Below, in pieces: positions 5,068 to 43,415 of a stretch of DNA of 44,798 bases. The notes beneath the pieces were generated by a model. It saw only the letters and a list, made by a program, of their open reading frames with translations, had not been told where the DNA came from and did not search any database. The translations under genes were made by a program, and so were the position numbers. Where the stretch lies: sequence record LT960609; one strand, 5' to 3'. Origin of the DNA: Escherichia phage SECphi18. The first letter of the stretch is position 1. Every line of letters starts with the position of its first letter.

Positions 5068-5358
5068 ATGGATAAGCTAAACGAGTGGTTATTCGCCCTT
5101 GCGTGTCTTGCTGGTGGCTTCGTAGGCGCACGCATTCATGGCGAGGCAACGAAAGGGCCGCTAAACTTCGTTTTATATATCGTGGTTGGCTTCCTGTGCG
5201 CCATATTTGGTGCGCCAGCTATCGCCGAGTGGGCGGGCTTATCCGGCGAGCGCACTGTCGCCGGTTTGGGCTTCGTAACTGCAATCTTCTGGATGCCAAT
5301 AGCCGCCCGGATCAGGGAGACTATTGAGTCGTTCCGACTTCCGGGGGGCGCAAAATGA
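5068..5358 (+). CDS. Holin-like membrane protein
   Basis: 96 aa; two or three predicted TM segments; immediately upstream of the endolysin. Confidence 0.5.
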   Translation: MDKLNEWLFALACLAGGFVGARIHGEATKGPLNFVLYIVVGFLCAIFGAPAIAEWAGLSGERTVAGLGFVTAIFWMPIAARIRETIESFRLPGGAK

Positions 5359-5603
5359 TTATCTCCGTCCTGTTGTTTGTTATCATAGGGGCTTCGTCCC
5401 TGTTTAACGTGTATGCGCCGTCCGTCCGGGATGGCATTTTCGGTCGGGTGTTATATCTGTTAACGGCAATGGTCTGTCTTATCGGATTGTTGCAAACAGG
5501 AGACGTATCAGATACCACCTGGACCGCGTTAATCTGGCTGTTTGCATTGCGCACCCTGCGTAATGCTGTTTTGAATGGGGTAAAACATGCGATTCAGCGA
5601 TAA
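5355..5603 (+). CDS. Second small membrane protein (holin/antiholin-like)
   Basis: 82 aa; ATG overlaps upstream stop; hydrophobic segments. Confidence 0.4.
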   Translation: MIISVLLFVIIGASSLFNVYAPSVRDGIFGRVLYLLTAMVCLIGLLQTGDVSDTTWTALIWLFALRTLRNAVLNGVKHAIQR

Positions 5604-6078
5604 CGGTCTACGATTTACGGCAGCATGGGAGACTTTCAGCCCAGTGCCGTATTTCGCGACTAAGAAAGAGCAGGCCCGTGGCCTGTACACCTGGGGCTAT
5701 GGTCACACCGGCACTAATCCGCCGCGGAGCATTACCCGTGCGGAAGCACTGGAGCTACTCAAGCGAGACGTGGCGTATGCCGAAAACTGGGTGAACAAGT
5801 ACGCACACCCGAGCATCAATCAGGCGCAATTCGACGCGCTGGTGGACCTGGTTATCAATGCTGGTCCAGGTCCGATCATGCCGGACGACGTCGCGGGTGA
5901 TTTCGACGATGCGATCCGCCTGGGTGACTGGGCGAAGGTACGGGCTACACTGCCACAATTCCGCAAGCAAGGCGGGGTAGTGCTCAAGGGGCTTGTCCGT
6001 CGTGCAATCGGCAGACAGGCGCTATTCGATGGTAAGCAGTGGGACGTTGCCGAGAGAATCGGGCGAAACGCAGCATAA
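5587..6078 (+). CDS. Endolysin, lysozyme-like (GH24-type muramidase)
   Basis: 163 aa; N-terminal AWETFSPVPY...TWGYGHTG resembles the phage lysozyme catalytic motif. Confidence 0.65.
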   Translation: MRFSDNGLRFTAAWETFSPVPYFATKKEQARGLYTWGYGHTGTNPPRSITRAEALELLKRDVAYAENWVNKYAHPSINQAQFDALVDLVINAGPGPIMPDDVAGDFDDAIRLGDWAKVRATLPQFRKQGGVVLKGLVRRAIGRQALFDGKQWDVAERIGRNAA

Positions 6079-6094
6079 TACGGGGTAACACAGT

Positions 6095-6355
6095 ATGTTA
6101 AAAAGTATTCTTGATCATAACGCCGACGCGCTCGCTGCGCTGGCTAAAACCGAAGACCCTGGCGCACGCGCTATCATCGCGGATACGATCAGCCATGCGG
6201 GGGTCTTCGATGCGAAGTTGCCCAGCCCGCCGGAAAGTAAGCCGGTGACTAGTGCATCCGTAACTATCACACCGGAATCCGCCGCAGTTGGTGCGAATGC
6301 CACCGCTTCGGTTGCGGTCCAGCCACCCGACGCGACTAACAAGGCAGGGAAGTAG
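6095..6355 (+). CDS. Hypothetical protein (Ala/Pro/Ser-rich)
   Basis: 86 aa ORF directly after the endolysin. Confidence 0.35.
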   Translation: MLKSILDHNADALAALAKTEDPGARAIIADTISHAGVFDAKLPSPPESKPVTSASVTITPESAAVGANATASVAVQPPDATNKAGK

Positions 6356-6514
6356 GTGTCGTCGAATCCTGCCTGTGCGGCGATCGATCAGACTACCGGA
6401 GAAATCACAGCCCAAGCGGCAGGTAGCGCCCACATCTTTTGGGTGGCCTCCGATGGTAGCGGGGCAATGGCGTCCGCCATCTTCACCGTAACGGAAGCAG
6501 GAGAATAAAACCAC

Positions 6515-6600: not shown

Positions 6601-7743
6601 ATGCACCCGCAAACTAAAATCACCGACGAGCAATTGATTGCTGAATTACAATCCGGCGCTACATCGAAAGAGATTTCTAAGAAGTACGGTTTATCCCTAC
6701 GAAACGTCTACATGCGCAAAGCCCGCCTGTCGAAGAAAGGTATTGGTCACGGTAACGATGCCGTAATCCGTAAGCGCGTTGCCGATGGCTTCGGGGTTAA
6801 GCGCGTATCCGCCCTGGTGCGCGGCAATGGCGAAGAGGTCATGTCTTGGGTTATCACTGAGCAGGACAAGGAGCGCCAGCTTGAAGCAATGCGCGCCGTT
6901 GTCGAGGGTATGAACAGCGAAATCACACCGGCAGCACCAGTAAGCGCCCCGCCAGTACCGATCCAGGCACTTGACCTGCTTAACCTGTACACCGTGTCCG
7001 ACTTCCACCTGGGCATGTTGGCCTGGGGCGAGGAGACTGGCGAAGACTGGGATATGGCGATTGCCGAAGACCTGTTTTACCGCTGGTTTGTCGAAGCCTT
7101 TGCACGCGCACCGGACGCAGGCACTGCCGTAATTAATATTCTCGGTGATATGGCGCACTTTGATAGTCTCGATGCTGTCACTCCGGCAAGTGGTCACATA
7201 CTGGACGCTGACACCCGCTACCAGAAACTGGTCCGATACATGATTCGCATGGTGCGCAACGTAGTCGAACTGGCGCTGCAAAAACACCACAAAGTCAAAC
7301 TGCTAATCGTCCAGGGAAATCATGACGAGTCGGGTATGATTTGGCTGGCTGAGATGTTCAATACTCTGTACGAGAACGAGCCGCGCGTCGATGTGGATAC
7401 GTCACCGGACGTATACAAGATGGTGCAGCACGGTAAGACCACGCTGTTTTTCCACCACGGGCACAAAGCGCGATTCGATGCTATCGAGCAGGTTATGATT
7501 TCTAAATTCAGACAGGCTTTCGGGTCCAGCGAGTACAGCTATGCGCACGTAGGCCACTTGCACCACCAGAAGATTGTCGAGTCTCGCAATATGATTGTGG
7601 AACAGCACAGGACACTCGCGGCGAAAGACGCCTACGCCAGTCGTGGCGGTTGGATGTCCGGTCGCAGCGCAAACGTCATCACCTATAGCGCCAACTACGG
7701 CGAAGTTGCACGCTTAACCATTAGCCCGGAAATGTTGAAGTAA
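6601..7743 (+). CDS. HTH domain fused to calcineurin-like metallophosphoesterase
   Basis: 381 aa from the internal ATG; N-terminal HTH (ATSKEISKKYGLSLRNVYMRKARL); motifs DFHLG, GDMAHFD, GNHDE, HHGH, GHLHH. Confidence 0.6.
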   Translation: MHPQTKITDEQLIAELQSGATSKEISKKYGLSLRNVYMRKARLSKKGIGHGNDAVIRKRVADGFGVKRVSALVRGNGEEVMSWVITEQDKERQLEAMRAVVEGMNSEITPAAPVSAPPVPIQALDLLNLYTVSDFHLGMLAWGEETGEDWDMAIAEDLFYRWFVEAFARAPDAGTAVINILGDMAHFDSLDAVTPASGHILDADTRYQKLVRYMIRMVRNVVELALQKHHKVKLLIVQGNHDESGMIWLAEMFNTLYENEPRVDVDTSPDVYKMVQHGKTTLFFHHGHKARFDAIEQVMISKFRQAFGSSEYSYAHVGHLHHQKIVESRNMIVEQHRTLAAKDAYASRGGWMSGRSANVITYSANYGEVARLTISPEMLK

Positions 7744-7763
7744 CCCCGCGCTGTAACCCTCCC

Positions 7764-7789
7764 AGCCCGCCGATTTGGTGGGCTTTTTT
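7764..7789 (+). terminator. Intrinsic terminator
   Basis: agcccgcc-gattt-ggtgggct (one G-U pair) followed by T6. Confidence 0.5.
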
Positions 7790-7803
7790 GTGCCTGTTAT
7801 AAT
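7775..7803 (+). promoter_or_regulatory. Sigma70-like promoter with extended -10, upstream of terminase genes
   Basis: -35 TTGGTG, 17-nt spacer, TGtTATAAT. Confidence 0.45.
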
Positions 7804-7873
7804 CCACCTTAGATGGCAGGGCCGTCTCCTATGTTGCCGATGGTCGGCGCATATGAACAAAAGGGCATATATC

Positions 7874-8425
7874 ATGGCAGAAATCAAAGTTAAGGGCCGA
7901 CGCGCCAAACTGGACGGACGAGTAGCAGTAACCCCGCGCCGTAAACCAGGCGAGCAAACTGAGCATACCAATCTCGGACCTGAAATCGAGTACGGAAAGC
8001 GCCGTAAAGGCGGCAAATGTGGACGCCCTACTGACTACCGATCCGTTTACTGCGACCAGCTTCGCCGCTATTTTGCCGACGCCGACGCCTGGCAGGTCAA
8101 CTACTCCGATAAAGGCGCTGCGCAAGTAATCCCCCGCAACAAAATGCCAACCTTCGGTCGATTTGCCGCGGAAATCGGTGTGGGCGTAGCTTGCCTGTAT
8201 CGCTGGGCGCGCGCACATGAGGAGTTCGCCGAGGCAATGGCTGACGCTATGGAATTGCAGAAAACCTTCCTGATGGAAGCTGGCGGCGTGACCATCGCGG
8301 CGGGCTTCGCCACGTTCCTGCTTAAAGCCAACCACGGCGTCCGCGACGATACCCCACTGGATGACGACGAAGATGATAACGGCGACGTCGTTGTCGAACC
8401 TACCGGCAAAGGCCAGGGTGAGTAA
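7874..8425 (+). CDS. Terminase small subunit
   Basis: 183 aa from internal ATG with RBS aaaggg; HTH-like FAAEIGVGVACLYRWARAHEEF; directly upstream of and overlapping the large subunit. Confidence 0.55.
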   Translation: MAEIKVKGRRAKLDGRVAVTPRRKPGEQTEHTNLGPEIEYGKRRKGGKCGRPTDYRSVYCDQLRRYFADADAWQVNYSDKGAAQVIPRNKMPTFGRFAAEIGVGVACLYRWARAHEEFAEAMADAMELQKTFLMEAGGVTIAAGFATFLLKANHGVRDDTPLDDDEDDNGDVVVEPTGKGQGE

Positions 8426-9810
8426 TGCGTAACTATGCGGCAGAACACCGCGCACTGGAACGCGCGATCGCAAAGCGCAACCTACCGCCACGCCCGACAC
8501 GCGTTGCGCAGGCGGTGCGTCTTTACCAGCCTGATTGCCTACCGCACCAGGTCGAACTACTGCGCGACACAAAGACTAAAATACTCGGCCTGTGTTCCGG
8601 CTTCGGTGGTGGAAAGTCGTGGGTCGCTGCGCGTAAGGTAATCCAGCTTCTCACCCTGAACCCTGGTCATGATGGAATTGTGACGGAACCGACTATTCCG
8701 CTCCTGGTTAAAATTATGTATCCGGAATTGGAAAAGGCGTTTGACGAGGCTGGCTTCCGGTGGAAGTTCAATAAGCAGGACAAGATCTATAATGTGCTGG
8801 TGAAAGGAAAATGGACTCGCGTTATCTGTGAATCAATGGAGAACTATACCCGCCTGATTGGGGTTAACGCCGCGTGGATTGTTGCCGACGAGTTCGATAC
8901 CACGAAGCAAGACGTTGCGCTGGCGGCGTATCACAAATTGCTCGGTCGTCTGCGTGCAGGCTTTGTGCGCCAGTTCGTCATCGTGTCCACCCCGGAAGGC
9001 TACCGGGCGATGTACCAGATTTTCGAAGTGGAGAAGGATAGCCAGAAGCGTTTGATCCGGGCGAAGACCACCGACAACCACCATTTACCGGCAGACTTTA
9101 TCGACACGCTGCGCAGTCAGTACCCGGCTAACCTGATCGACGCGTACCTGAACGGCCTATTTGTTAACCTTACGTCGGGCGCGGTGTACAAGATGTTCAA
9201 CCGTGAGGAGAACGCCAGCACTGAAGAAGTGCAACCCGACGACACGCTGATTATCGGTATGGACTTTAACGTCACGAAGATGGCGGCGGTCGTGTACGTC
9301 AGACGGCAGCGCATCACCGAAAACAAGGAGTTCCGCGACGAGATCCACGCAGTGGATGAATTCGTGGACCTGTTTGACACCCCGGCTATGATTGAGGCGA
9401 TCGAGGAGCGCTACCCCGATCATTGTGCTGCCGGTCGGGTCGTCGTTTACCCGGATAGCAGCGGCAAGTCCCGCAAGACTGTCAACGCATCGTCGTCAGA
9501 TATCGCACAACTGGAAGACGCGGGCTTCGAGGTGGAGTACGACAGCGTTAACCCACCTGTGAAAGACCGATTGATCGCGATGAATACGATGATGTGCAAC
9601 TCGAAGGGCGTGCGCCAGTATTTTGTCAACCTGGATAAATGCCCTACACTAGCGAAATGTCTGGAACAGCAGGTTTACGACCTGAAGAAAGGCGAGCCGG
9701 ATAAAACCGCCGGGGTGGACCACATGAACGATGCCGCGGGCTATCCAATTGCGCACCTGTTCCCAGTGATTCGCCCAATCGCCGTTGTTCCAACTGTAGA
9801 CTTCTACTAA
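8425..9810 (+). CDS. Terminase large subunit
   Basis: 461 aa; Walker A GFGGGKS and Walker B-like WIVADE; ATG overlaps upstream stop. Confidence 0.85.
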   Translation: MRNYAAEHRALERAIAKRNLPPRPTRVAQAVRLYQPDCLPHQVELLRDTKTKILGLCSGFGGGKSWVAARKVIQLLTLNPGHDGIVTEPTIPLLVKIMYPELEKAFDEAGFRWKFNKQDKIYNVLVKGKWTRVICESMENYTRLIGVNAAWIVADEFDTTKQDVALAAYHKLLGRLRAGFVRQFVIVSTPEGYRAMYQIFEVEKDSQKRLIRAKTTDNHHLPADFIDTLRSQYPANLIDAYLNGLFVNLTSGAVYKMFNREENASTEEVQPDDTLIIGMDFNVTKMAAVVYVRRQRITENKEFRDEIHAVDEFVDLFDTPAMIEAIEERYPDHCAAGRVVVYPDSSGKSRKTVNASSSDIAQLEDAGFEVEYDSVNPPVKDRLIAMNTMMCNSKGVRQYFVNLDKCPTLAKCLEQQVYDLKKGEPDKTAGVDHMNDAAGYPIAHLFPVIRPIAVVPTVDFY

Positions 9811-9820
9811 GGAAACGACC

Positions 9821-11341
9821 ATGACCGTTAACGTTGACAACCAGCACCCACTTTATGCGCGCATCGCGCCAGAGTGGAAGATGATCCGCGATTGTGTAGC
9901 AGGGGAGCGCGCAGTGAAGGCGTGCGGCCCCTTGTACCTGCCTCATCCCGCCAGTGGCGACAATACTGACCCGAAAGCACGGGCGCGGTATAAGGCGTAC
10001 AAGCAACGCGCTGTATTCCTGAACGCCACCGCCCGCACACTTAACGCGCTGTTAGGCGTTGCCTTTGCTAAACCGGTAAGTCTGGACCTTTCCGGGGCGA
10101 TGGCTGACCTGATTGACGACGTAGACGGCAGTGGTATGCCGCTGCCGCAACTCCTGCGCGGTGCTATGTCGGAAGTGCTGCAATCAGGCCGTGCGGGCTT
10201 TATGGTGGACTACGACCGCCAGGCGCATTTTGATGAACTGGGTAACGTAGTGCCGCAGACAGCCGCTGAGATGGCGTCACACCGCCCGCTTATCCGCCTG
10301 TACACGGCAGAACAGATCATCAACTGGCGGCAGACCCACGGCGTCGATACGCTAATTGTGCTGAAGGAAACGGACGAAATCAGCACCGAAGACCCGGACG
10401 ACTTTGCAAACCACGAAGTAACAATCTGGACCGAGCTTCGCATGATTAACGGTGCGGCACACGCCCGCCGCTGGTACTACAACGCGGACACGTCCGAGGT
10501 GCAAATGGATTTGCCGCGTGGATTTACCCGCACCGACCTTGTTCCGCTGGTGGATGCTGCCGGTCGTGCGCTTACTCAACTTCCGTTTTGCTGGTGCGGC
10601 GCGGTGGATAACAACGCAACGCCAGACGCCGCGCCGCTGGCTGATATTGCGTCCATCAACATTAAGCACTACAACGCCGAAGCGGACGTCGCCGAGATTG
10701 CGCACATCGTGGGCCAACCTACCCTGGTGGCAACGGGCTTGACTCAATCATGGGCGGACAAAAACCTGAAGGGCGGCATTGCCCTCGGTGCGACTAAGGG
10801 CGTTATCCTGGGCCAGAACATGGACGCTAAACTTATTCAGGCCGAGGAGCGCAACTTGTCTGTCGCTCTTTGTGAGCGCCGCGAATTGCAAATGGCTAAA
10901 CTGGGCGCGGCCCTGGTTGAGAAGGGGACCGCACCTAAGACGGCAACGGAAGCGGCCTACGATGCGCAGACTGATAACAGTATCTTGTCGCTTATTGCCG
11001 GTAACGTTGAGAAGGCTTTCAACCGTGCGCTGCAAATCGTCCAGCTATTCACGGGAGACACCGCCGACCAGCGTGTGACGCTGAATAAGTTCTACACCGA
11101 AATCACGGTTGATGCGCAGCTTATGACCGCGATGATGTCGGGTGTGCAGACTGGCACGGTCCGCCTGGCTGATTTCATCAAGTGGATGATGGCGCAGGGC
11201 GTTATCGACGACTCGCAAACCGTCGAGCAGGTGGAAGACGAATTGCGAAATCAGAATCCATTGCCTCAAATGTCCCCTGATGCGGTAGAATCTACCGAAG
11301 AAGACCCGGACAAGGTAGCGGACAATGGCGAAGACAATTAA
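9821..11341 (+). CDS. Portal protein
   Basis: 506 aa; position after terminase; acidic C-terminus. Confidence 0.7.
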   Translation: MTVNVDNQHPLYARIAPEWKMIRDCVAGERAVKACGPLYLPHPASGDNTDPKARARYKAYKQRAVFLNATARTLNALLGVAFAKPVSLDLSGAMADLIDDVDGSGMPLPQLLRGAMSEVLQSGRAGFMVDYDRQAHFDELGNVVPQTAAEMASHRPLIRLYTAEQIINWRQTHGVDTLIVLKETDEISTEDPDDFANHEVTIWTELRMINGAAHARRWYYNADTSEVQMDLPRGFTRTDLVPLVDAAGRALTQLPFCWCGAVDNNATPDAAPLADIASINIKHYNAEADVAEIAHIVGQPTLVATGLTQSWADKNLKGGIALGATKGVILGQNMDAKLIQAEERNLSVALCERRELQMAKLGAALVEKGTAPKTATEAAYDAQTDNSILSLIAGNVEKAFNRALQIVQLFTGDTADQRVTLNKFYTEITVDAQLMTAMMSGVQTGTVRLADFIKWMMAQGVIDDSQTVEQVEDELRNQNPLPQMSPDAVESTEEDPDKVADNGEDN

Positions 11342-12428
11342 TCAACATTTGGCGGATCGAATGATTCGCCGTCACATCTTCACCCAGCGCCTGAGCAATG
11401 ATCAGGCGCGGAGGGTGCTGGCTATGTGGGAGAAGTTCCGGCCCGCTTTGCTAGGCAAGTTGACCGAGTTACTTGATGGCAAAAAGTCCATGAACAACAA
11501 GGCACTTACCACTCTATTAACGCAACTAGACAAGACCGTCAAAACGGAACTGCGCGCCGAGTTTAAGGCGCTGGCTGAAAGCCTTCAGGAGTTCGCCGAC
11601 ACCGAGGCTGATTATCTCACCGACACATTAACGGCAGCGATCCAGCCCGCTGTCGCCGTACCCGCTGTTGAAGTAGTTGGCGTTGTTACCGGCGCGCAGA
11701 TTGCCGCGACGGCAATGAAAAACCCGTTCCAGGGTAATACTATGATGCAATGGCCTGATTCCCTTTCCGAGTGGACCAGGACGCAGATCGGGAATCAGGT
11801 ACGCGCTGGATTCATCCAGGGCAAGCCGACGATGGAAATTATTGCGGACGTGAGGCGCGCGCTAGGCGGTCGTAGTGCGCAAGCAATCTCAAGCGTTGTT
11901 AAGTCCGCGGTCAACCACTATGCGGCGACCGCCCGCGAATTAATGGTAAAAGCTAATGACGATATTCTCGAAGGTCGCCAATGGTTGGCTACATTGGACA
12001 CTCATACTTCCCCTATGTGCCAGCTACGCGATCGCCTGTTTTATCCTGTCGACGTCACTCCCGACACCAAAGGAAAACGCGGCGGGAAAGTGGTGGCGGG
12101 ATCACAATATGGCGCTGGTCCGGGCAAGCTGCATTATTGCTGCCGTTCGACGGAGACGTGGAAAGTTAAGGGCATGGAAGATTGGCCCAGTGGTAAGCGT
12201 CCGGCACTGAAGGCTGAAGCGGGCAGATTGCTGAGTGAGCAGGTCGACGCGCAGACTGATTTCTTCTCATGGGTGCAGCGCCAGCCGCGCCATATTCTGG
12301 AGGAATTATATGGAGTGCAGCGCGCCGACCAGATTATGCGCGGCGTGAAAGTGCCGAAGATGTTCACCGATTCTGGCGAACTGATGACTATCGCACAGCT
12401 TAAAAACCGGGGGTTATGGCGTGATTAA
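11325..12428 (+). CDS. Head morphogenesis protein (Mu F / SPP1 gp7-like)
   Basis: 367 aa; overlaps portal 3' end; typical position. Confidence 0.65.
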   Translation: MAKTINQHLADRMIRRHIFTQRLSNDQARRVLAMWEKFRPALLGKLTELLDGKKSMNNKALTTLLTQLDKTVKTELRAEFKALAESLQEFADTEADYLTDTLTAAIQPAVAVPAVEVVGVVTGAQIAATAMKNPFQGNTMMQWPDSLSEWTRTQIGNQVRAGFIQGKPTMEIIADVRRALGGRSAQAISSVVKSAVNHYAATARELMVKANDDILEGRQWLATLDTHTSPMCQLRDRLFYPVDVTPDTKGKRGGKVVAGSQYGAGPGKLHYCCRSTETWKVKGMEDWPSGKRPALKAEAGRLLSEQVDAQTDFFSWVQRQPRHILEELYGVQRADQIMRGVKVPKMFTDSGELMTIAQLKNRGLWRD

Positions 12429-12729
12429 ATATGCAGCGATTGGACTGGTTATCGGTCTGGCGGTTGGATTCTGGCAGGGTGATTCCTACCGCACTGGCGT
12501 TGAGGCGAGAGCGGCGCAAGAAGCGCAAGCGAAAGCCCAACGGCAGCAAACTAAGGTTGTCGAGGGGGCCGTGCAGGCAGAACAGGCCCGCGACGTGGAA
12601 TACCGGACTATCACGAAAGAGGTTGTAAAATATGTTACGCGTCCTAACCGTCCTGATTGCCGTTTTGATGATGAGCGCGTGCGGATCAAGCAACGTGCCA
12701 TCGACGCCGCTAACCGAGTCGGTCTATAG
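12421..12729 (+). CDS. i-spanin (Rz-like)
   Basis: 102 aa; GTG start; N-terminal TM AAIGLVIGLAVGFW then charged helical region; overlaps the o-spanin in another frame. Confidence 0.5.
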   Translation: MIKYAAIGLVIGLAVGFWQGDSYRTGVEARAAQEAQAKAQRQQTKVVEGAVQAEQARDVEYRTITKEVVKYVTRPNRPDCRFDDERVRIKQRAIDAANRVGL

Positions 12730-12862
12730 ACCACCTTGCACCTTTGAGAATGCCTCGGCAGATCCAGACGAAGACTTGCTGGTTGATGTTAAAAATATGG
12801 AATGCGGGGCTAAGCTAAGGGCGCAAGTGCTGGAGTTGCAGAAAATAATTCGGGGGCCGTGA
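12632..12862 (+). CDS. o-spanin (Rz1-like outer-membrane lipoprotein)
   Basis: 76 aa; signal peptide with lipobox LMMSAC; starts inside the i-spanin gene in a different frame. Confidence 0.55.
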   Translation: MLRVLTVLIAVLMMSACGSSNVPSTPLTESVYRPPCTFENASADPDEDLLVDVKNMECGAKLRAQVLELQKIIRGP

Positions 12863-12876
12863 TGGCCCCCTTTTGT
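12852..12876. terminator. Bidirectional intrinsic terminator
   Basis: gggggcc-gtga-ggccccc followed by TTTT; lies between convergent genes. Confidence 0.6.
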
Positions 12877-13640
12877 TAGCGCGGAATACCGCAAATCTCG
12901 TTTAGTGTTTTCACGTCCAGCGCCACCGCCGTGGACTTAGGCTTGTCCGGGTAAGGAATGAACTGTTCCACTTCAGGCCACGCCTTGATCAGCTTCTTAT
13001 CGGTATTGTGCATATCCAGAACGCCGGTAACGGTTAGTTTGAACGCATCATACTTCGCACGCAACTCGCGGCGGGCCTGGTCGTTACGGTCAAGGCGCTT
13101 GCAGAAGTCGTGGTCTGACGGGTAGTCCGCGCGATCGCGAGGAAGATATATCGGCAACGCTTTCCCGTCCTCGTCCACTTCGCACACTGACGCGAGCATA
13201 ACTGTCTCGAACCCCGGAACGATATCGCCGAGATCAGGCGCGAGCTTATTCATATATTTCTCTTCCCAGTATCCGCGATGTATGCGATGTTGGCGACCGT
13301 CGCCGCTCAATGACAAGGTGCGAACATTGCCGCCTGCGTTGATTTCAAAGGTGGCGTTGTAAACGCTGCCGATACCTTTCGGGCGGTCGGTGTTGTAGCT
13401 ATACGTCGCCTTGTTGGAGTAGACGCTGACGCCGTACATCTGCGACTGGGCATCGCGGATTGCCTTGATATGCTCGCGGAGCGCTGCAAACGTGCGAATG
13501 CCTTCCGGCATACAGTCCAGCGTAATGGCGTACGCAAGGTCGCGAGAGTCCATCATGATGGATTTGGCTTCGGTCGCGATTTCGTGGCCGCGCAGGATGT
13601 TAGCCAGAATCTGGTTTTTAATGTCTTTCGTCAGTCTCAT
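12876..13640 (-). CDS. Reverse-strand moron, hypothetical protein (254 aa)
   Basis: Internal ATG (MRLTKDIK...) with RBS gagga; own promoter; no family recognised by eye; the longer ORF-track N-terminus overlaps the scaffold gene. Confidence 0.6.
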   Translation of the reverse strand: MRLTKDIKNQILANILRGHEIATEAKSIMMDSRDLAYAITLDCMPEGIRTFAALREHIKAIRDAQSQMYGVSVYSNKATYSYNTDRPKGIGSVYNATFEINAGGNVRTLSLSGDGRQHRIHRGYWEEKYMNKLAPDLGDIVPGFETVMLASVCEVDEDGKALPIYLPRDRADYPSDHDFCKRLDRNDQARRELRAKYDAFKLTVTGVLDMHNTDKKLIKAWPEVEQFIPYPDKPKSTAVALDVKTLNEICGIPR

Positions 13641-13662
13641 TTTTGTGTCCTCGTTGTTGGTG

Positions 13663-13698
13663 TGCAACCAATATATGCAACCAATACGAGGATTGCAA
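13663..13698 (-). promoter_or_regulatory. Sigma70-like promoter with two tandem operator-motif copies
   Basis: Minus strand: -35 TTGCAA, 17 nt, -10 TATATT; ATTGGTTGCA copies 13 nt apart cover the spacer and start site. Confidence 0.5.
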
Positions 13699-13788
13699 GC
13701 GAATTTTGCGATTATTTTTATCGCTGATAATATTAGAAGCGTGAAGTCGAGCGGGTGGCCCGCTCTGCCACAATCCCAGGGGGATAGC

Positions 13789-14493
13789 ATGAAACTTACT
13801 AAAGCAGAATATGACGCGTTGCCGGAAGGTATGAAGGCGCTTTTTGTTGCCGATGGCGACGGGTATAAATCAACGTTCATGACCGCAGAAGAAGTACAGG
13901 CGGAAATTAAGGGTCTGAAAGACAACAACGCGAAGCTGGTGAGCGAGAAGAAAGCAGAAGCCGAACGCCGCGCCGAAGCTGAGCGCCTTGCGAAAGAGAA
14001 AGAGGAAGCCGCCGCGCGCAAAAATGGCGACCTCGAAGCGATCGATAAGTCCTGGAAAGATAAGTTTGCGAAACACGAAGCAGACACATCGGGAAAAATC
14101 GAAGCCTACCGCAAGCAGATCCACGATCTAACCATCGGCAGTGCTGCCAAAGACCTGGCCTCGAAGCTGTTCGGTAAGAATGCTGGGATCATGCAACGCC
14201 ACGTAATGGACCGCCTGACGCTGGAAGACGGCGAAGACGGCAGCTTGAAAGTGCGTGTCTTGCAGGATGGCAAACCGTCCGCGCTGACGATGGAAGAGCT
14301 TGAAAAAGAGTTCCGTAATAACGCCGATTTTGCATCCGTCCTGGCCGGCACGCCAGCCGGCGGCGCGCCTAGCAAACCGACGCAGGTTGTCGAAGATGTG
14401 AAGTCGAAAATTACGATGGGCCATAGCTTCGGTATCACCGATCTCACCAAACAGGCCGGGGATATCATCGCTAAGATGGGCGACGACGAGTAA
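13789..14493 (+). CDS. Scaffolding protein
   Basis: 234 aa from internal ATG with RBS aggggg; charged coiled-coil-like Ala/Glu/Lys-rich; precedes the major capsid gene. Confidence 0.55.
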   Translation: MKLTKAEYDALPEGMKALFVADGDGYKSTFMTAEEVQAEIKGLKDNNAKLVSEKKAEAERRAEAERLAKEKEEAAARKNGDLEAIDKSWKDKFAKHEADTSGKIEAYRKQIHDLTIGSAAKDLASKLFGKNAGIMQRHVMDRLTLEDGEDGSLKVRVLQDGKPSALTMEELEKEFRNNADFASVLAGTPAGGAPSKPTQVVEDVKSKITMGHSFGITDLTKQAGDIIAKMGDDE

Positions 14494-14497
14494 GCAG

Positions 14498-14523
14498 ATT
14501 GCCCGCGAAAGCGGGCAATTTTG
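14498..14523 (+). terminator. Intrinsic terminator
   Basis: attgcccgc-gaaa-gcgggcaat followed by TTTT. Confidence 0.6.
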
Positions 14524-40873: not shown

Positions 40874-41659
40874 TTAACGGCGGCGACGTTTACGTGGTGC
40901 TTCGTCTTCGTCGTCGTCCTCATCTTCGTCATCGCGGGACTTGCGGCGCTTGCGAGGTTTTTCATCTTCCTCATCATCGTCGTCGTCATCGCGGCGCTTG
41001 GATTTCTTGGACTTGCGCGGCTTGTCATCTTCATCATCGTCATCACGACGATTTGACTTCTTAGCCTTGCGCGGTGCTTCGTCTTCGTCGTCGTTGTCCA
41101 GGTCTTCATCGGAGCAAGAAGACCCGCCACCCCCGAAGGCTTCACCGTCATCACGGAAGCGTAAACCCAGCAAGCCAGCACCGAGTCCCTTGCCGTTGGT
41201 ATTGTTCCACGCCCAGATATCAAGGGACACGTTGCAATAACAACCGGAGTAGATCTCCTGGCCTTCGATCTCGTCGCCTTCTACTGTCAGACCCTGTTCG
41301 GTCTGCTTCTCACCGAGTGACGTTTGAATGTTTGGCTGTTTGAACGATTTAGCGTTGATGTACAACATGCCTTCGAATTCTTCAGTCACTTCGTCGCGCT
41401 CGTCACCGTCGCGGACTGCGCATTCCTTCGAATCCTGGGCGTAGTGGCGGTCCATCCACTTATCGGCATTCTTCTCGGATTTCAGCTTGTCGGTGAGCAC
41501 TGCGCGCGCTGCCGCTTCCACTTTGTCCACCTGCGGATCTTCTTTATCCAGAAGAATCACGGCACGATATGCCGGTTTTTGTCCATCCTGTTTAGGGGTG
41601 TCACGTTCCCAAATTTTCAGGAAGCATACGCGCACATTTTTCAGGTTGACTTTAGCCAT
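40874..41659 (-). CDS. ssDNA-binding-like protein with repetitive acidic/basic C-terminal tail
   Basis: 261 aa from internal ATG with RBS gaggaa; C-terminal repeats of DDDDEDDKPRKSKKSKRR type. Confidence 0.4.
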   Translation of the reverse strand: MAKVNLKNVRVCFLKIWERDTPKQDGQKPAYRAVILLDKEDPQVDKVEAAARAVLTDKLKSEKNADKWMDRHYAQDSKECAVRDGDERDEVTEEFEGMLYINAKSFKQPNIQTSLGEKQTEQGLTVEGDEIEGQEIYSGCYCNVSLDIWAWNNTNGKGLGAGLLGLRFRDDGEAFGGGGSSCSDEDLDNDDEDEAPRKAKKSNRRDDDDEDDKPRKSKKSKRRDDDDDDEEDEKPRKRRKSRDDEDEDDDEDEAPRKRRRR

Positions 41660-41714
41660 TTTCCAATTCCTCATTTTCACATGTATCGGGGTTATTGGAA
41701 GCCACCCCGTTCGG

Positions 41715-41753
41715 CTTGGTTGCTAATCTACTTGGTTGCGCCTAAGCGGTCAA
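41715..41753 (-). promoter_or_regulatory. Sigma70-like promoter with two operator-motif copies
   Basis: Minus strand: -35 TTGACC, 17 nt, -10 TAGATT; GCAACCAAG copies in the spacer and at the start site. Confidence 0.45.
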
Positions 41754-41992
41754 GCATTTTCATTAAAAAGATTTCTGGTAACGTAGTTGGTGGCGTTCTC
41801 GATCCAGCTTAACGGCGGGCGGTTAATGTTCTTCTCCACCCAATCGACGGCCGCTTCGCTATAGCCGTCATCCAGCCAGCGGGTCGGATGGCGAATCATC
41901 CAGGCAACCATTAACACGCCTTGCACGCAATGCAGGATAAAGCCCAGCGCGCCGAGCAAAAACATCAATAAGATTGCGAATACTTTATTCAT
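41750..41992 (-). CDS. Small membrane protein
   Basis: 80 aa; RBS gaggac; N-terminal TM FAILLMFLLGALGFIL. Confidence 0.4.
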   Translation of the reverse strand: MNKVFAILLMFLLGALGFILHCVQGVLMVAWMIRHPTRWLDDGYSEAAVDWVEKNINRPPLSWIENATNYVTRNLFNENA

Positions 41993-43415
41993 TGCTTAAG
42001 TCCTCGTCAGTGGCTTCAGACCACGCAGGGCGCGGGTCGTCAATTGGTGCTATTACAGGTTTAGCCGGTGCGCGCGTGATTTTATCACACAACTTCGCCC
42101 ACACTTTCGGCTTCTCGTCCTTAAGTACCTTCTCGGCATCCGTAGGACTGAGCAATGTTTCTTTGTACATCACATCGCGCTTGATCCGGGCCTTCGTGAA
42201 GATCTCAATCACTTCGCTCTCGTCCGCCCACTTGCGGATCCCTTCCTTACCGGCAACCATCTTGAGGCCCAACGATTCGCCATCTCCCGCCATGACCGCC
42301 TTGAATACCGCGGACTCGATAGCCTTGATGTGCTGGCGCATTGCGTCAAGACCTTCATATGCCTTGCGCAGTTCCGCCGCGCTCATGGCGCCTGGGGCCG
42401 CTTCCTTCTTACCACGCTTCGCACGTCGTGCCGCTTTCCTGGCTTCGCGGGCCATATTGCGATCGTGATTGGCGCATTCCTCCTCTGTCGCAATACTAGC
42501 GTCGTCGCCCAGGTCTTCGTCGGTTGCCGTTGGAGGTGTCATCGTGTCGATTGCGGCCTTCGCGCGGGCACTACACTGATCCGCAAATCGGCACCACTGG
42601 CACGCATCAACGCTGGGACGGAAGTCGGCACGGGTAAGTCCCTTCTTGCCTCGGGAATACGCCTCCAGTGCGGCAATAGCGCGCTTGGATGCAAACTTCG
42701 CGAATATCTCCAGCGCTTCTACCGAAATATCCCACTCCGACGCCCCTCCGCAATACGGCTGGAAGATAACCAGGCGAACGGTCGTAATGTCGTACATAGT
42801 TTGCAGCTTGCGCAGCAGTCCGAGCGCGTACAACATAAGCTGTTTGTTTTCTTTCGCCTCGACCTTATGCCGCCCGGTCTTCAGGTCGCCAACAATCAGC
42901 ATGTACGTCCCATCGGTCTTTTTCATGACCATGACCATATCGGCAGTACCGAACGTTTTAATCCTGTTGCCGTCGATCTCGTAGCCTGAGTGAAGGACGC
43001 GGGTAAGATCGGCGCGCATCTCAAGCTGGACAAACTCCGCCACTTCGAGGAGCGGTCGCCAGTGGTCGATGTACGCGTCGCACTGTTTCACCATGTCGTC
43101 GTTGACCAGTACGCCGCCTTTCGGTGCTTTAGGGTGCGCCTTTACCGGCCCCTTTCCTTCGTTCTCGACGTAGCACCCTTTATACGTCTTCGCGGTTATC
43201 AGCTTCTCGCCGGCGATAATGCGGTTTAGCACCACCTCCGATACGGTGTGCATACTCGTACCGTTAATCGCCGCTTGCCCTGATTCGTTCGGGATATCTT
43301 TTTCCACCACCAGGGCGGCGGGGCAATCCATCCATTTTTTAGCACCGGATGGGCCGAGTAATGAGTGTTCCGTGTTGCTGCCGGATTGCGTTTTACGTTT
43401 TGGTTTAATCGCCAT
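41985..43415 (-). CDS. DUF2800-type PD-(D/E)xK nuclease (RecB/Cas4-like)
   Basis: 476 aa; N-terminal HSLLGPSGAKKWMDCPAAL signature; Cys cluster CQWCRFADQC. Confidence 0.55.
   Translation of the reverse strand: MAIKPKRKTQSGSNTEHSLLGPSGAKKWMDCPAALVVEKDIPNESGQAAINGTSMHTVSEVVLNRIIAGEKLITAKTYKGCYVENEGKGPVKAHPKAPKGGVLVNDDMVKQCDAYIDHWRPLLEVAEFVQLEMRADLTRVLHSGYEIDGNRIKTFGTADMVMVMKKTDGTYMLIVGDLKTGRHKVEAKENKQLMLYALGLLRKLQTMYDITTVRLVIFQPYCGGASEWDISVEALEIFAKFASKRAIAALEAYSRGKKGLTRADFRPSVDACQWCRFADQCSARAKAAIDTMTPPTATDEDLGDDASIATEEECANHDRNMAREARKAARRAKRGKKEAAPGAMSAAELRKAYEGLDAMRQHIKAIESAVFKAVMAGDGESLGLKMVAGKEGIRKWADESEVIEIFTKARIKRDVMYKETLLSPTDAEKVLKDEKPKVWAKLCDKITRAPAKPVIAPIDDPRPAWSEATDEDLSNE

What the first reader, a model, noticed from the sequence alone, without database searches (positions are those of the whole stretch)
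12421..12862. Spanin pair separated from the holin-endolysin cassette
The overlapping Rz/Rz1-like pair is about 6 kb from the holin/endolysin genes (5068-6078), between head morphogenesis and scaffold genes, followed by a bidirectional terminator. Lysis genes are usually contiguous.
Basis: partly seen in the sequence, partly recalled or inferred. Interest (0 to 1): 0.4.

Follow-up and report, generated by a model that had tools for sequence, protein, structure and literature searches.

The report
Spanin genes apart from lysis cassette
This coliphage keeps its two outer-membrane-disrupting "spanin" genes among the head-assembly genes, 6 kb from its holin and endolysin genes. The layout is real, but it is normal for this phage group and is already annotated and described.

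Summary
ORF 12421-12729 (102 aa) has an N-terminal membrane helix. ORF 12632-12862 (76 aa) has a lipoprotein signal ending in MSAC. They overlap by 98 nt and match the Rz-like spanin PHROG families (E = 7e-36 and 1e-25). A conserved G+C-rich hairpin at 12852-12870 reads as a terminator on both strands. Two holin genes and the endolysin lie at 5068-6078, 6.3 kb upstream.

The window is a near-complete Dhillonvirus (HK578-like) genome, 93-96% identical to Oekolampad and GeorgBuechner, whose GenBank records already label these genes i-spanin and o-spanin. Kongari et al. 2018 place HK578, JL1, SSL-2009a, SO-1 and EP23 in the "Jersey" overlapped spanin family. The same split layout occurs in Jersey and K1H, and was stated in print for phage Schulenberg.

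More distant homologues (66 IMG/VR loci, and a lambdoid Klebsiella phage) sit directly after an endolysin. One of them, L038, has the same head-gene families, with head-morphogenesis and scaffold genes abutting. So the Dhillonvirus/Guernseyvirinae layout looks like a lineage-specific relocation, and the i-spanin start now overlaps the end of the head-morphogenesis gene.

Verdict: already known, low interest.

The parts
12421..12729 (+). i-spanin gene (102 aa; GTG start). It has an N-terminal membrane helix at about residues 3-19, a helical periplasmic domain and a conserved Cys80.
   Evidence: phrog_2536 Rz-like spanin at 7e-36. Hydrophobicity maximum at residues 1-15 and Cys80. Cys80 is invariant in an alignment with Jersey, K1H, pYD38-A and P400. 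The GTG start is conserved in 16 of 16 Dhillonvirus sequences. Annotated i-spanin in Oekolampad.
12632..12862 (+). o-spanin gene (76 aa). It has a lipoprotein signal ending in MSAC (Cys17) with Gly at +2. The mature part is 59 aa with Cys36 and Cys58.
   Evidence: phrog_5672 at 1.2e-25 and phrog_1267 at 1.4e-11. Lipobox and Cys positions. Cys17, Cys36 and Cys58 are conserved in Jersey and K1H. The lipobox reads LSAC in most Dhillonvirus relatives. An AAAGAGG Shine-Dalgarno sequence ends 8 nt before the ATG.
12632..12729 (+). The 98-nt stretch read in two frames ('overlapped' spanin architecture).
   Evidence: Coordinates. Only 20 of 98 sites vary among 16 Dhillonvirus sequences, against 57 of 211 in the i-only part.
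12852..12877 (.). G+C-rich hairpin (12852-12870) plus T-run, acting as an intrinsic-terminator-like site on both strands. The o-spanin stop codon lies in the loop, and the 5' arm encodes its last residues.
   Evidence: One search finds it on both strands. Folds at -17.6 and -17.3 kcal/mol. Conserved in 16 Dhillonvirus sequences, with a paired G-C to A-U change (CGGGGGCC...GGCCCCC versus AAGGGGCC...GGCCCCT).
11325..12428 (+). Head-morphogenesis (minor capsid) gene. Its stop overlaps the i-spanin start by 8 nt (GTGATTAA).
   Evidence: phrog_241 at 5e-117. Sequence read directly.
5068..5358 (+). Holin gene 1 of the distant lysis cassette.
   Evidence: phrog_2359 holin at 9.6e-32.
5355..5603 (+). 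Second holin-like gene (holin or antiholin).
   Evidence: phrog_2508 holin at 7.4e-28. Annotated holin in Gluttony.
5587..6078 (+). Endolysin (T4-lysozyme-like). I saw no hydrophobic N-terminal segment.
   Evidence: PF00959 at 2.5e-20. phrog_7 at 2.2e-36. Sequence.
7874..11341 (+). terS (7874-8425), terL (8425-9810) and portal (9821-11341). These are the genes between the two halves of the lysis system and probably share a transcript with the spanins.
   Evidence: phrog_3064, phrog_2/10250 and phrog_145. A terminator-like site at 7764-7784 and a promoter-like site at 7775-7803 lie just upstream.
12876..13640 (-). Nmad5-domain gene convergent with the spanins. It shares the hairpin as its terminator and is present in only some Dhillonviruses.
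   Evidence: PF18757 Nmad5 at 1.3e-57. Promoter-like site at 13698-13670 on the - strand. Not detected in L010, L014, L017 or L021.
13789..14493 (+). Head scaffolding gene, the downstream border of the slot.
   Evidence: phrog_206 at 2.9e-51.

Best explanation
Genes 12421-12729 and 12632-12862 encode the two subunits of a two-component spanin. The i-spanin is anchored in the inner membrane by its N-terminal helix. The o-spanin is a small lipoprotein sorted to the outer membrane.

By analogy with lambda Rz/Rz1, the two join through their C-terminal parts to span the periplasm, are held in check by the peptidoglycan mesh, and disrupt the outer membrane once holin and endolysin have removed that mesh. 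This is established knowledge of the system, not tested here.

Because the complex is pre-assembled and is triggered only by loss of the wall, it needs late expression, not physical linkage to holin/endolysin. Here the pair forms the last two cistrons of the terS-terL-portal-head-morphogenesis block. The i-spanin start overlaps the head-morphogenesis stop by 8 nt, so translational coupling is likely, and the block ends at the hairpin 12852-12870.

Shown: gene structure, targeting signals, family membership, coding constraint in both frames, conservation of the layout and of the hairpin. Inferred: localisation, lytic function, co-transcription and translational coupling.
For: PHROG Rz-like spanin hits at 7e-36 and 1.2e-25. 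N-terminal hydrophobic helix, lipobox MSAC with Gly at +2, and periplasmic Cys80, Cys36 and Cys58, all conserved in Jersey, K1H and other relatives. Third-codon-position bias in each frame and reduced variation in the overlap.

Annotated i-/o-spanin in Oekolampad and Rz-like spanin in Gluttony. HK578, JL1, SSL-2009a, SO-1 and EP23 are listed in the Jersey overlapped spanin family in PMC6139136.

Homologues at 40-48% identity sit immediately after an endolysin in about 58 of 66 IMG/VR loci. The same holds in L038 and in lambdoid Klebsiella phage 2 LV-2017 downstream of Q and lysozyme. This ties the family to lysis.

The window's own lysis cassette has no other spanin candidate: the ORF after the endolysin is a Big_2 Ig-domain protein in which I saw no hydrophobic N-terminus or lipobox.

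The hairpin is conserved with a compensatory change.
Against: I found no experiment on any member of this spanin family. No Pfam or NCBIfam model matches either protein, and there is no BLASTP similarity to lambda Rz or Rz1, so the function rests on topology signals, PHROG annotation and gene context in relatives.

The window's lipobox has Met at -3, where most relatives have Leu. The single-sequence AlphaFold model is low-confidence (mean pLDDT 61). Co-transcription with the head genes is inferred from pattern matches only, and promoter-like hits in the region are no more frequent than in shuffled sequence.
Confidence: 0.9

Rival explanations
1. The small lipoprotein, with or without its membrane partner, is not a lysis protein. 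Instead it is a superinfection-exclusion or receptor-masking lipoprotein of the kind encoded by T5 (Llp) or the Cor proteins, carried as a moron in a variable slot of the head module.
For: It lies outside the lysis cassette, in a slot that also holds a clearly accessory, variably present gene (Nmad5). It is a small outer-membrane-type lipoprotein. No function has been tested experimentally.
Against: It always occurs with an overlapping type-II membrane partner. Both match spanin PHROGs. In about 58 of 66 more distant loci and in Klebsiella phage 2 LV-2017 the homologous pair directly follows the endolysin. Without it the phage would have no spanin candidate at all. The paired periplasmic Cys are conserved as in known spanins (PMC6139136).
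Confidence: 0.04
2. The separation is only apparent. It would be an artefact of assembly, of circular permutation, or of where the window was cut, and the genes would really be neighbours.
For: The window is about one genome length (44.8 kb), and related records start at different points.
Against: The 6.3 kb between endolysin and i-spanin is continuous inside the window and consists of intact genes: exonuclease, terS, terL, portal and head morphogenesis. The same order, with the endolysin start 5.5-7.4 kb upstream of the i-spanin start, is seen in the 11 independent Dhillonvirus loci that reach far enough upstream and in Jersey and K1H.
Confidence: 0.01
3. The spanins stayed at an ancestral site, and it was the holin/endolysin genes that moved or were replaced. 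Vibrio phage pYD38-A and Yersinia phage P400 carry a whole endolysin-holin-spanin cassette after their portal and head-morphogenesis genes.
For: In pYD38-A and P400 a homologous i-spanin lies in a complete cassette downstream of portal and head-morphogenesis genes. The endolysin families next to this spanin family differ between loci: PF00959, GH19, and a P400 endolysin with no BLASTP similarity to the others. This shows that endolysins are exchanged around it.
Against: The portal and head-morphogenesis proteins of pYD38-A and P400 show no significant BLASTP similarity to those of the window (E 0.14-0.95), so 'same site' is only an analogy. L038 does share the window's head-gene families, has head-morphogenesis and scaffold genes abutting, and has the full cassette upstream of terS.
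Confidence: 0.2

Closest known systems
'Jersey' overlapped two-component spanin family of Kongari et al. 2018 (PMC6139136). Members include Jersey, SETP3, K1H, EP23, HK578, JL1, SSL-2009a and SO-1.
   Same: The PHROG families match: the window hits phrog_2536 and phrog_5672, the families reported for the spanins of Jerseyvirus SeF1. The architecture is overlapped. The i-spanin is 87% identical to that of HK578. The periplasmic parts are 48% (i) and 41% (o) identical to Jersey's. Cys80 and the two o-spanin Cys are conserved. It has the short periplasmic domain of the 'EP23 to SO-1' subfamily. The position between head-morphogenesis and scaffold genes is the same.
   Different: Only small allelic differences. 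The window's i-spanin is 102 aa rather than 109 aa, because a substitution in the overlap creates an earlier stop. Its lipobox is MSAC rather than LSAC.
Lambda Rz/Rz1 (prototype i-spanin/o-spanin)
   Same: Same predicted topology: a type II inner-membrane protein plus a small outer-membrane lipoprotein. The second gene lies in a different frame of the first. Both have periplasmic Cys. The presumed mechanism is the same.
   Different: No detectable sequence similarity and no hit to any Pfam model. The genes are overlapped rather than fully embedded. They are not adjacent to S and R equivalents, whereas in lambda S-R-Rz/Rz1 are contiguous.
T4 PseT.3/PseT.2 spanins
   Same: A documented precedent for spanin genes that are not located near the holin and endolysin genes (PMC6139136).
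   Different: The T4 pair has the 'separated' architecture. In T4 all lysis genes are scattered. Here holin-holin-endolysin remain a compact cassette and only the spanins are elsewhere. I did not compare the sequences.
Phage Schulenberg (Guernseyvirinae-like). Genome announcement PMC6763661.
   Same: [quoted passage not shown] Its i-spanin is a tblastn hit of the window's (H85).
   Different: A different genus, with only about 49% identity over the C-terminal third of the i-spanin.
Contiguous cassettes carrying the same spanin family: IMG/VR contig L038 and lambdoid Klebsiella phage 2 LV-2017
   Same: The i- and o-spanins are homologous. L038 also shares the terL, portal, head-morphogenesis, scaffold and capsid families.
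   Different: In those genomes the spanins directly follow the endolysin, upstream of the terminase genes, and in L038 head-morphogenesis and scaffold genes abut. In the window the pair sits between those two head genes.

Membership tests
Two-component spanin (i-spanin + o-spanin) | The i-spanin has a single N-terminal transmembrane helix (type II, N-in/C-out). | tested here: met
   The Kyte-Doolittle 15-aa window peaks at 2.05 over residues 1-15 (MIKYAAIGLVIGLAVGFWQG), and nothing hydrophobic follows. Topology itself is inferred.
Two-component spanin (i-spanin + o-spanin) | The i-spanin periplasmic domain is mainly alpha-helical, with two helices joined by a linker. | tested here: inconclusive
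   The single-sequence AlphaFold2 model gives helices at 5-72 and 84-99 with a linker at 73-83, but mean pLDDT is only 61. This agrees with the published prediction for the EP23-to-SO-1 subfamily.
Two-component spanin (i-spanin + o-spanin) | The o-spanin has a signal-peptidase-II lipobox with Cys and no Asp at +2 (outer-membrane sorting). | tested here: met
   MSAC with Cys17, then Gly at +2 and Ser at +3. LSAC in most relatives. Met at -3 is less common, but I recall that the PROSITE lipoprotein pattern allows it (own knowledge, not checked here). Lipidation itself is untested.
Two-component spanin (i-spanin + o-spanin) | The two genes are adjacent, with the o-spanin embedded in, overlapping or immediately following the i-spanin gene. 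| tested here: met
   98-nt overlap in different frames. Both frames are under coding constraint.
Two-component spanin (i-spanin + o-spanin) | Periplasmic cysteines are available for intermolecular disulfide bonds. | tested here: met
   i-spanin Cys80 is invariant in 5 of 5 diverse homologues. o-spanin Cys36 and Cys58 are invariant in 3 of 3 and in 16 of 16 Dhillonvirus sequences.
Two-component spanin (i-spanin + o-spanin) | Required for outer-membrane disruption, shown by complementing lambda Rz/Rz1 null mutants. | not testable with these tools
   This needs an experiment. I found no published test for this family.
Kongari 'Jersey' overlapped spanin family | Significant sequence similarity of the periplasmic domains to family members. 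| tested here: met
   87% identity to HK578 and 86% to EP23 i-spanins. BLASTP against Jersey gives 3e-11 (i) and 6e-15 (o). HK578, JL1, SSL-2009a, SO-1 and EP23 are listed as members.
Lambda Rz / Rz1 sequence families (the Pfam families for lambda Rz and Rz1, whose accessions I recall as PF03245 and PF06085) | A match to the Pfam models, or pairwise similarity to lambda Rz or Rz1. | tested here: not met
   No Pfam family at E <= 0.1 for either protein. BLASTP against lambda Rz gives E = 10 and against Rz1 gives E = 1.2. The pair works like Rz/Rz1 but does not belong to those sequence families.
Unimolecular spanin (T1 gp11 type) | One protein carrying both an N-terminal lipobox and a C-terminal transmembrane helix. 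| tested here: not met
   The two signals are on two separate proteins. The o-spanin has no C-terminal hydrophobic segment.
Contiguous lysis cassette (holin-endolysin-spanin, lambda type) | Spanin genes immediately downstream of the endolysin gene. | tested here: not met
   6343 nt and seven or more genes lie between them. The feature is met in distant homologues.
Bidirectional intrinsic terminator | A G+C-rich hairpin followed by a U-run on both strands, between convergent genes. | tested here: met
   The + strand has 8 pairs followed by TTTTGTT. The - strand has 7 pairs followed by GAATTATTTT, an interrupted U-run. It lies between the convergent o-spanin and Nmad5 genes. Termination itself has not been measured.

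The most novel reading that the evidence does not exclude
The slot between the head-morphogenesis and scaffold genes may be a recombination hot spot. An ancestor of Dhillonvirus and Guernseyvirinae would have moved its spanin pair there out of a canonical endolysin-linked cassette. That swapped the i-spanin's translational coupling partner from the endolysin to the head-morphogenesis protein, so spanin dosage and timing now follow the packaging/portal operon. It would also leave the holin-endolysin cassette free to be exchanged on its own. The 5' arm of the terminator has since become part of the o-spanin coding sequence.
Probability: 0.35. Interest if true: 0.25.

Novelty: already known. Interest (0 to 1): 0.1.

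Why it matters
It matters little beyond correct annotation. The case shows that spanin genes need not sit beside holin and endolysin genes, so annotators of siphophage genomes should look for them inside the head module too. In several related GenBank records these two genes are still labelled 'hypothetical protein'.

The comparison with L038 gives a clean natural example of a spanin pair that changed genomic neighbourhood and upstream coupling partner. It could be used to ask whether spanin expression level or timing matters for lysis. That would be a modest question in a well-understood system.

Tried and rejected
1. I considered that the spanins mark the ancestral site of the whole cassette, because pYD38-A and P400 carry endolysin-holin-spanin after their portal and head-morphogenesis genes. 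I downgraded this. Their portal and head-morphogenesis proteins show no significant BLASTP similarity to the window's. L038, which does share the head-gene families, has the cassette upstream of terS.

2. I looked for a second, cassette-linked spanin downstream of the endolysin. ORF 6095-6355 plus 6356-6508 is a Big_2 Ig-domain protein in which I saw no hydrophobic N-terminus or lipobox. The minus-strand ORF 6098-6514 has no support.

3. Pfam and NCBIfam searches of both spanins and both holins found nothing useful.

4. Direct comparison with lambda Rz and Rz1 found no similarity.

5. Single-sequence AlphaFold2 of the i-spanin gave only a low-confidence helix-linker-helix model, so I did not use it for a fold search. 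Locus-derived homologues are not accepted for alignment-based prediction, and I judged a 13-CPU-hour homologue search not worth it for a known family.

6. Promoter scans were no more frequent than in shuffled sequence, so the operon boundaries remain inference.

7. One paper reading failed on a term that was too short, and one script failed on a file name. Both were repeated successfully.
Full report
**What the window is.** A megablast of 11300-14500 against GenBank phages found 157 records. In 140 of them one match covers at least 80% of the 3.2-kb query. Nearly all are Escherichia or Shigella phages of the genus Dhillonvirus. The best are Oekolampad at 95.8% and GeorgBuechner at 93.8%. At 44.8 kb the window is about one genome length for this genus.

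**Check of the observation.**
- ORF 12421-12729 (+, GTG start, 102 aa) and ORF 12632-12862 (+, ATG start, 76 aa) exist as described and overlap by 98 nt in different frames.
- Both match 'Rz-like spanin' PHROG families. The first hits phrog_2536 at 7e-36. The second hits phrog_5672 at 1.2e-25 and phrog_1267 at 1.4e-11.
- The 102-aa protein begins with one hydrophobic helix (MIKYAAIGLVIGLAVGFWQG), is hydrophilic afterwards, and has a single Cys at position 80.
- The 76-aa protein begins with a signal peptide ending in MSAC (Cys17). Gly follows at +2, so there is no Asp inner-membrane retention signal. Two more Cys lie at 36 and 58.
- An alignment of the window with 15 Dhillonvirus loci shows coding constraint in both frames. 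Variable sites at codon positions 1, 2 and 3 number 15, 6 and 36 in the i-only part, and 8, 4 and 27 in the o-only part. Only 20 of 98 sites vary in the shared stretch.
- The GTG start is present in all 16 sequences. In most relatives the lipobox is the canonical LSAC.

**The distant lysis cassette.** It consists of holin 5068-5358 (phrog_2359), a second holin-like gene 5355-5603 (phrog_2508) and endolysin 5587-6078 (PF00959, phrog_7). I saw no hydrophobic N-terminal segment in the endolysin sequence. The 6343 nt between endolysin and i-spanin hold, in order:
- an Ig-domain ORF;
- a DNA-repair exonuclease (phrog_704);
- terS (phrog_3064);
- terL;
- portal (phrog_145);
- head morphogenesis (phrog_241).

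**The terminator.** A hairpin at 12852-12870 scores as terminator-like on both strands. It folds at -17.6 kcal/mol on the + strand and -17.3 kcal/mol on the - strand, with z = -3.8 on the - strand.
- The o-spanin stop codon lies in the loop, and the 5' arm encodes the last residues (R/K-G-P).
- Among relatives the arm changes from CGGGGGCC...GGCCCCC to AAGGGGCC...GGCCCCT. This is a paired G-C to A-U change that keeps the stem.
- On the other side, 5 nt away, is the stop of a convergent minus-strand gene, 12876-13640, with an Nmad5 domain (PF18757, 1.3e-57).
- That gene has a promoter-like site at 13698-13670. It was not detected in four Dhillonvirus loci (L010, L014, L017, L021).
- In three of those loci (L010, L014, L017) the sequence diverges right after the hairpin. 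The hairpin therefore belongs with the spanin unit.

**What it is.** The pair is a two-component spanin. The evidence is the topology signals above, the PHROG matches, the conserved cysteines, and the gene context of homologues.
- i-spanin Cys80 is invariant across Jersey, K1H, pYD38-A and P400. The three o-spanin Cys are invariant across Jersey and K1H.
- A pattern scan of IMG/VR with an i-spanin alignment returned 80 loci.
- Fourteen are Dhillonvirus-like, with the i-spanin right after head morphogenesis. In the 11 that extend far enough upstream, the endolysin starts 5.5-7.4 kb before the i-spanin.
- The other 66 are 40-48% identical, and many look like prophage regions in bacterial genomes. 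About 58 of them have a T4-lysozyme-type endolysin ORF ending at the i-spanin start.
- Three of the remainder (L028, L029, L031) have a 208-aa ORF ending at the i-spanin start, preceded by hydrophobic small ORFs that could be holins. In L028 this ORF matches glycoside hydrolase family 19.
- Lambdoid Klebsiella phage 2 LV-2017 has the order NinG, Q, lysozyme, spanin, terminase.
- The window's cassette has no alternative spanin candidate.

**How it most likely works.** This paragraph rests on established knowledge of lambda Rz/Rz1, named precisely. No step of it was tested here.
- The i-spanin is inserted in the inner membrane.
- The o-spanin is lipidated and sorted to the outer membrane.
- The two bind through their C-terminal regions and form disulfide-linked complexes threaded through the peptidoglycan.
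- Once holin and endolysin destroy the wall, the complexes disrupt the outer membrane.

The complex is made in advance and is released only by wall degradation. It therefore needs late expression, not adjacency to holin and endolysin.

In the window, the i-spanin GTG overlaps the head-morphogenesis stop (GTGATTAA) and a GGGGG run lies 8-12 nt upstream. The o-spanin has its own AAAGAGG. In L038 and the other contiguous cassettes the i-spanin start overlaps the endolysin stop in the same way. The pair has therefore kept its tight junction with an upstream gene while changing partner.

A terminator-like site at 7764-7784 and a promoter-like site at 7775-7803 (TTGGTG-17-TATAAT) precede terS. My inference is one transcription unit running from terS to the o-spanin and ending at 12870. 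Promoter-like matches are no more frequent than in shuffled sequence, so this part is weak.

**Comparison with what is known.**
- GenBank record MZ501095 (Oekolampad) labels the orthologues i-spanin and o-spanin. RefSeq for Gluttony labels both 'Rz-like spanin'.
- Maffei et al. 2021 annotated the spanins of the BASEL phage collection, which includes Oekolampad, with the spanin database tool of Kongari et al..
- Kongari et al. 2018 list HK578, JL1, SSL-2009a, SO-1 and EP23 in the 27-member 'Jersey' overlapped family. They describe the shorter 'EP23 to SO-1' subfamily as two helices with a linker and a variable C-terminal end.
- My low-confidence single-sequence model agrees: helix 5-72, linker 73-83, helix 84-99, mean pLDDT 61.
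- The split layout is shared with Guernseyvirinae. In Jersey the order is head morphogenesis, two small genes, the spanins at 7501-7996, then the scaffold homologue. Holin, a second holin homologue and lysin are at 41182-42221, upstream of terS.
- K1H has the same order.
- Jersey and K1H holins, endolysin, terL, portal and head-morphogenesis proteins are homologous to the window's, as are the scaffold proteins, though more weakly.
- Kongari et al. also give T4 as a case where the spanins are not near holin and endolysin.
- The proteins are not members of the lambda Rz or Rz1 sequence families. There is no Pfam or NCBIfam hit and no BLASTP similarity.

**What the comparison adds.** Contig L038 has this gene order:
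- holin (phrog_20);
- endolysin (phrog_7);
- i-spanin (phrog_2536);
- o-spanin (phrog_5672);
- about 1.5 kb of other sequence;
- terS, terL, portal;
- head morphogenesis (phrog_241, 32% identical to the window's, 3e-49);
- scaffold (phrog_206), whose start overlaps the head-morphogenesis stop;
- capsid (phrog_247).

Relative to this genome, the window's spanin pair sits on the other side of the packaging and portal genes, in a slot that does not exist in L038. That slot also carries accessory genes elsewhere: Nmad5 in the window, and a Hoc-like gene plus a small ORF in Jersey and K1H.

This favours a relocation of the spanins, or an exchange of a module that included them, in an ancestor of Dhillonvirus and Guernseyvirinae. 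Phage mosaicism prevents a firm statement on direction.

The alternative is that the spanins stayed put and holin/endolysin moved. I considered it because of pYD38-A and P400. It is weakened because their head proteins show no significant similarity to the window's.

**Verdict.** The arrangement is nevertheless the norm for a large, well-sampled group of coliphages and Salmonella phages. It is already annotated, already classified and already noted in print. Novelty: already known. Interest: 0.1.

Noticed in passing
window 6095-6508 (+): The ORF after the endolysin encodes a Big_2 Ig-like domain (PF02368, 8.6e-09 when read through). It is interrupted by an in-frame TAG at 6353-6355. Relatives L017 and L021 have Trp at that position, and their ORF is continuous. 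The cause could be a nonsense mutation, an amber codon tolerated in a suppressor host, or a sequencing error. Most other Dhillonvirus loci lack the Ig part altogether.
   Followed up: partly
window 12876-13640 (-), promoter-like site at 13698-13670: An Nmad5 ('nucleotide modification associated domain 5') gene is inserted antisense between the spanins and the scaffold gene. It has its own promoter-like site and shares the spanin hairpin as terminator. It was not detected in L010, L014, L017 or L021, so it behaves like a moron. Its function is unknown.
   Followed up: partly
window 12852-12870 and 13641-13788: A strong terminator-like hairpin sits in the middle of the structural genes, between portal/head morphogenesis and scaffold/capsid. 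The scaffold and capsid genes would then need their own promoter in the 148-nt gap 13641-13788, or read-through. The consensus scan found no + strand promoter there. By eye, TTTTGC-16-GATAAT near 13704-13731 is a weak candidate.
   Followed up: no
window 12715-12729: The window, L001 (Oekolampad), L002 (Gluttony), L010 and L011 have a 102-aa i-spanin. The other 11 Dhillonvirus loci have 109 aa. The earlier stop coincides with a change in the overlapping o-spanin frame from SAL to SVY. It trims the C-terminal end that Kongari et al. describe as variable and unstructured.
   Followed up: partly
window 12671-12682: The o-spanin lipobox is MSAC in the window, L001 (Oekolampad) and L010, and LSAC in the other 13 Dhillonvirus sequences. 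Met at -3 is a less common lipobox residue.
   Followed up: no
window 7764-7803: A terminator-like hairpin (7764-7784, + strand) overlaps a promoter-like site with a perfect -10 (TTGGTG-17-TATAAT, 7775-7803) just upstream of terS. This could be the boundary between the exonuclease gene and the packaging operon.
   Followed up: no
L039 8750-9870: In this prophage-like IMG/VR locus, two minus-strand ORFs of 277 and 87 aa lie directly upstream of the i-spanin, where the other loci have the endolysin. By eye their sequences look like insertion-sequence transposase subunits, but I did not search them against any family library. This suggests a disrupted lysis cassette.
   Followed up: no
L005 (pYD38-A) about 7090-7300; L006 (P400) 7137-7280: My ORF scan finds o-spanin homologues overlapping the annotated i-spanins in both phages. 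In pYD38-A the o-spanin is not annotated at all. In P400 only a 47-aa 'hypothetical protein' is annotated at that position. These look like missed or truncated o-spanin calls.
   Followed up: no
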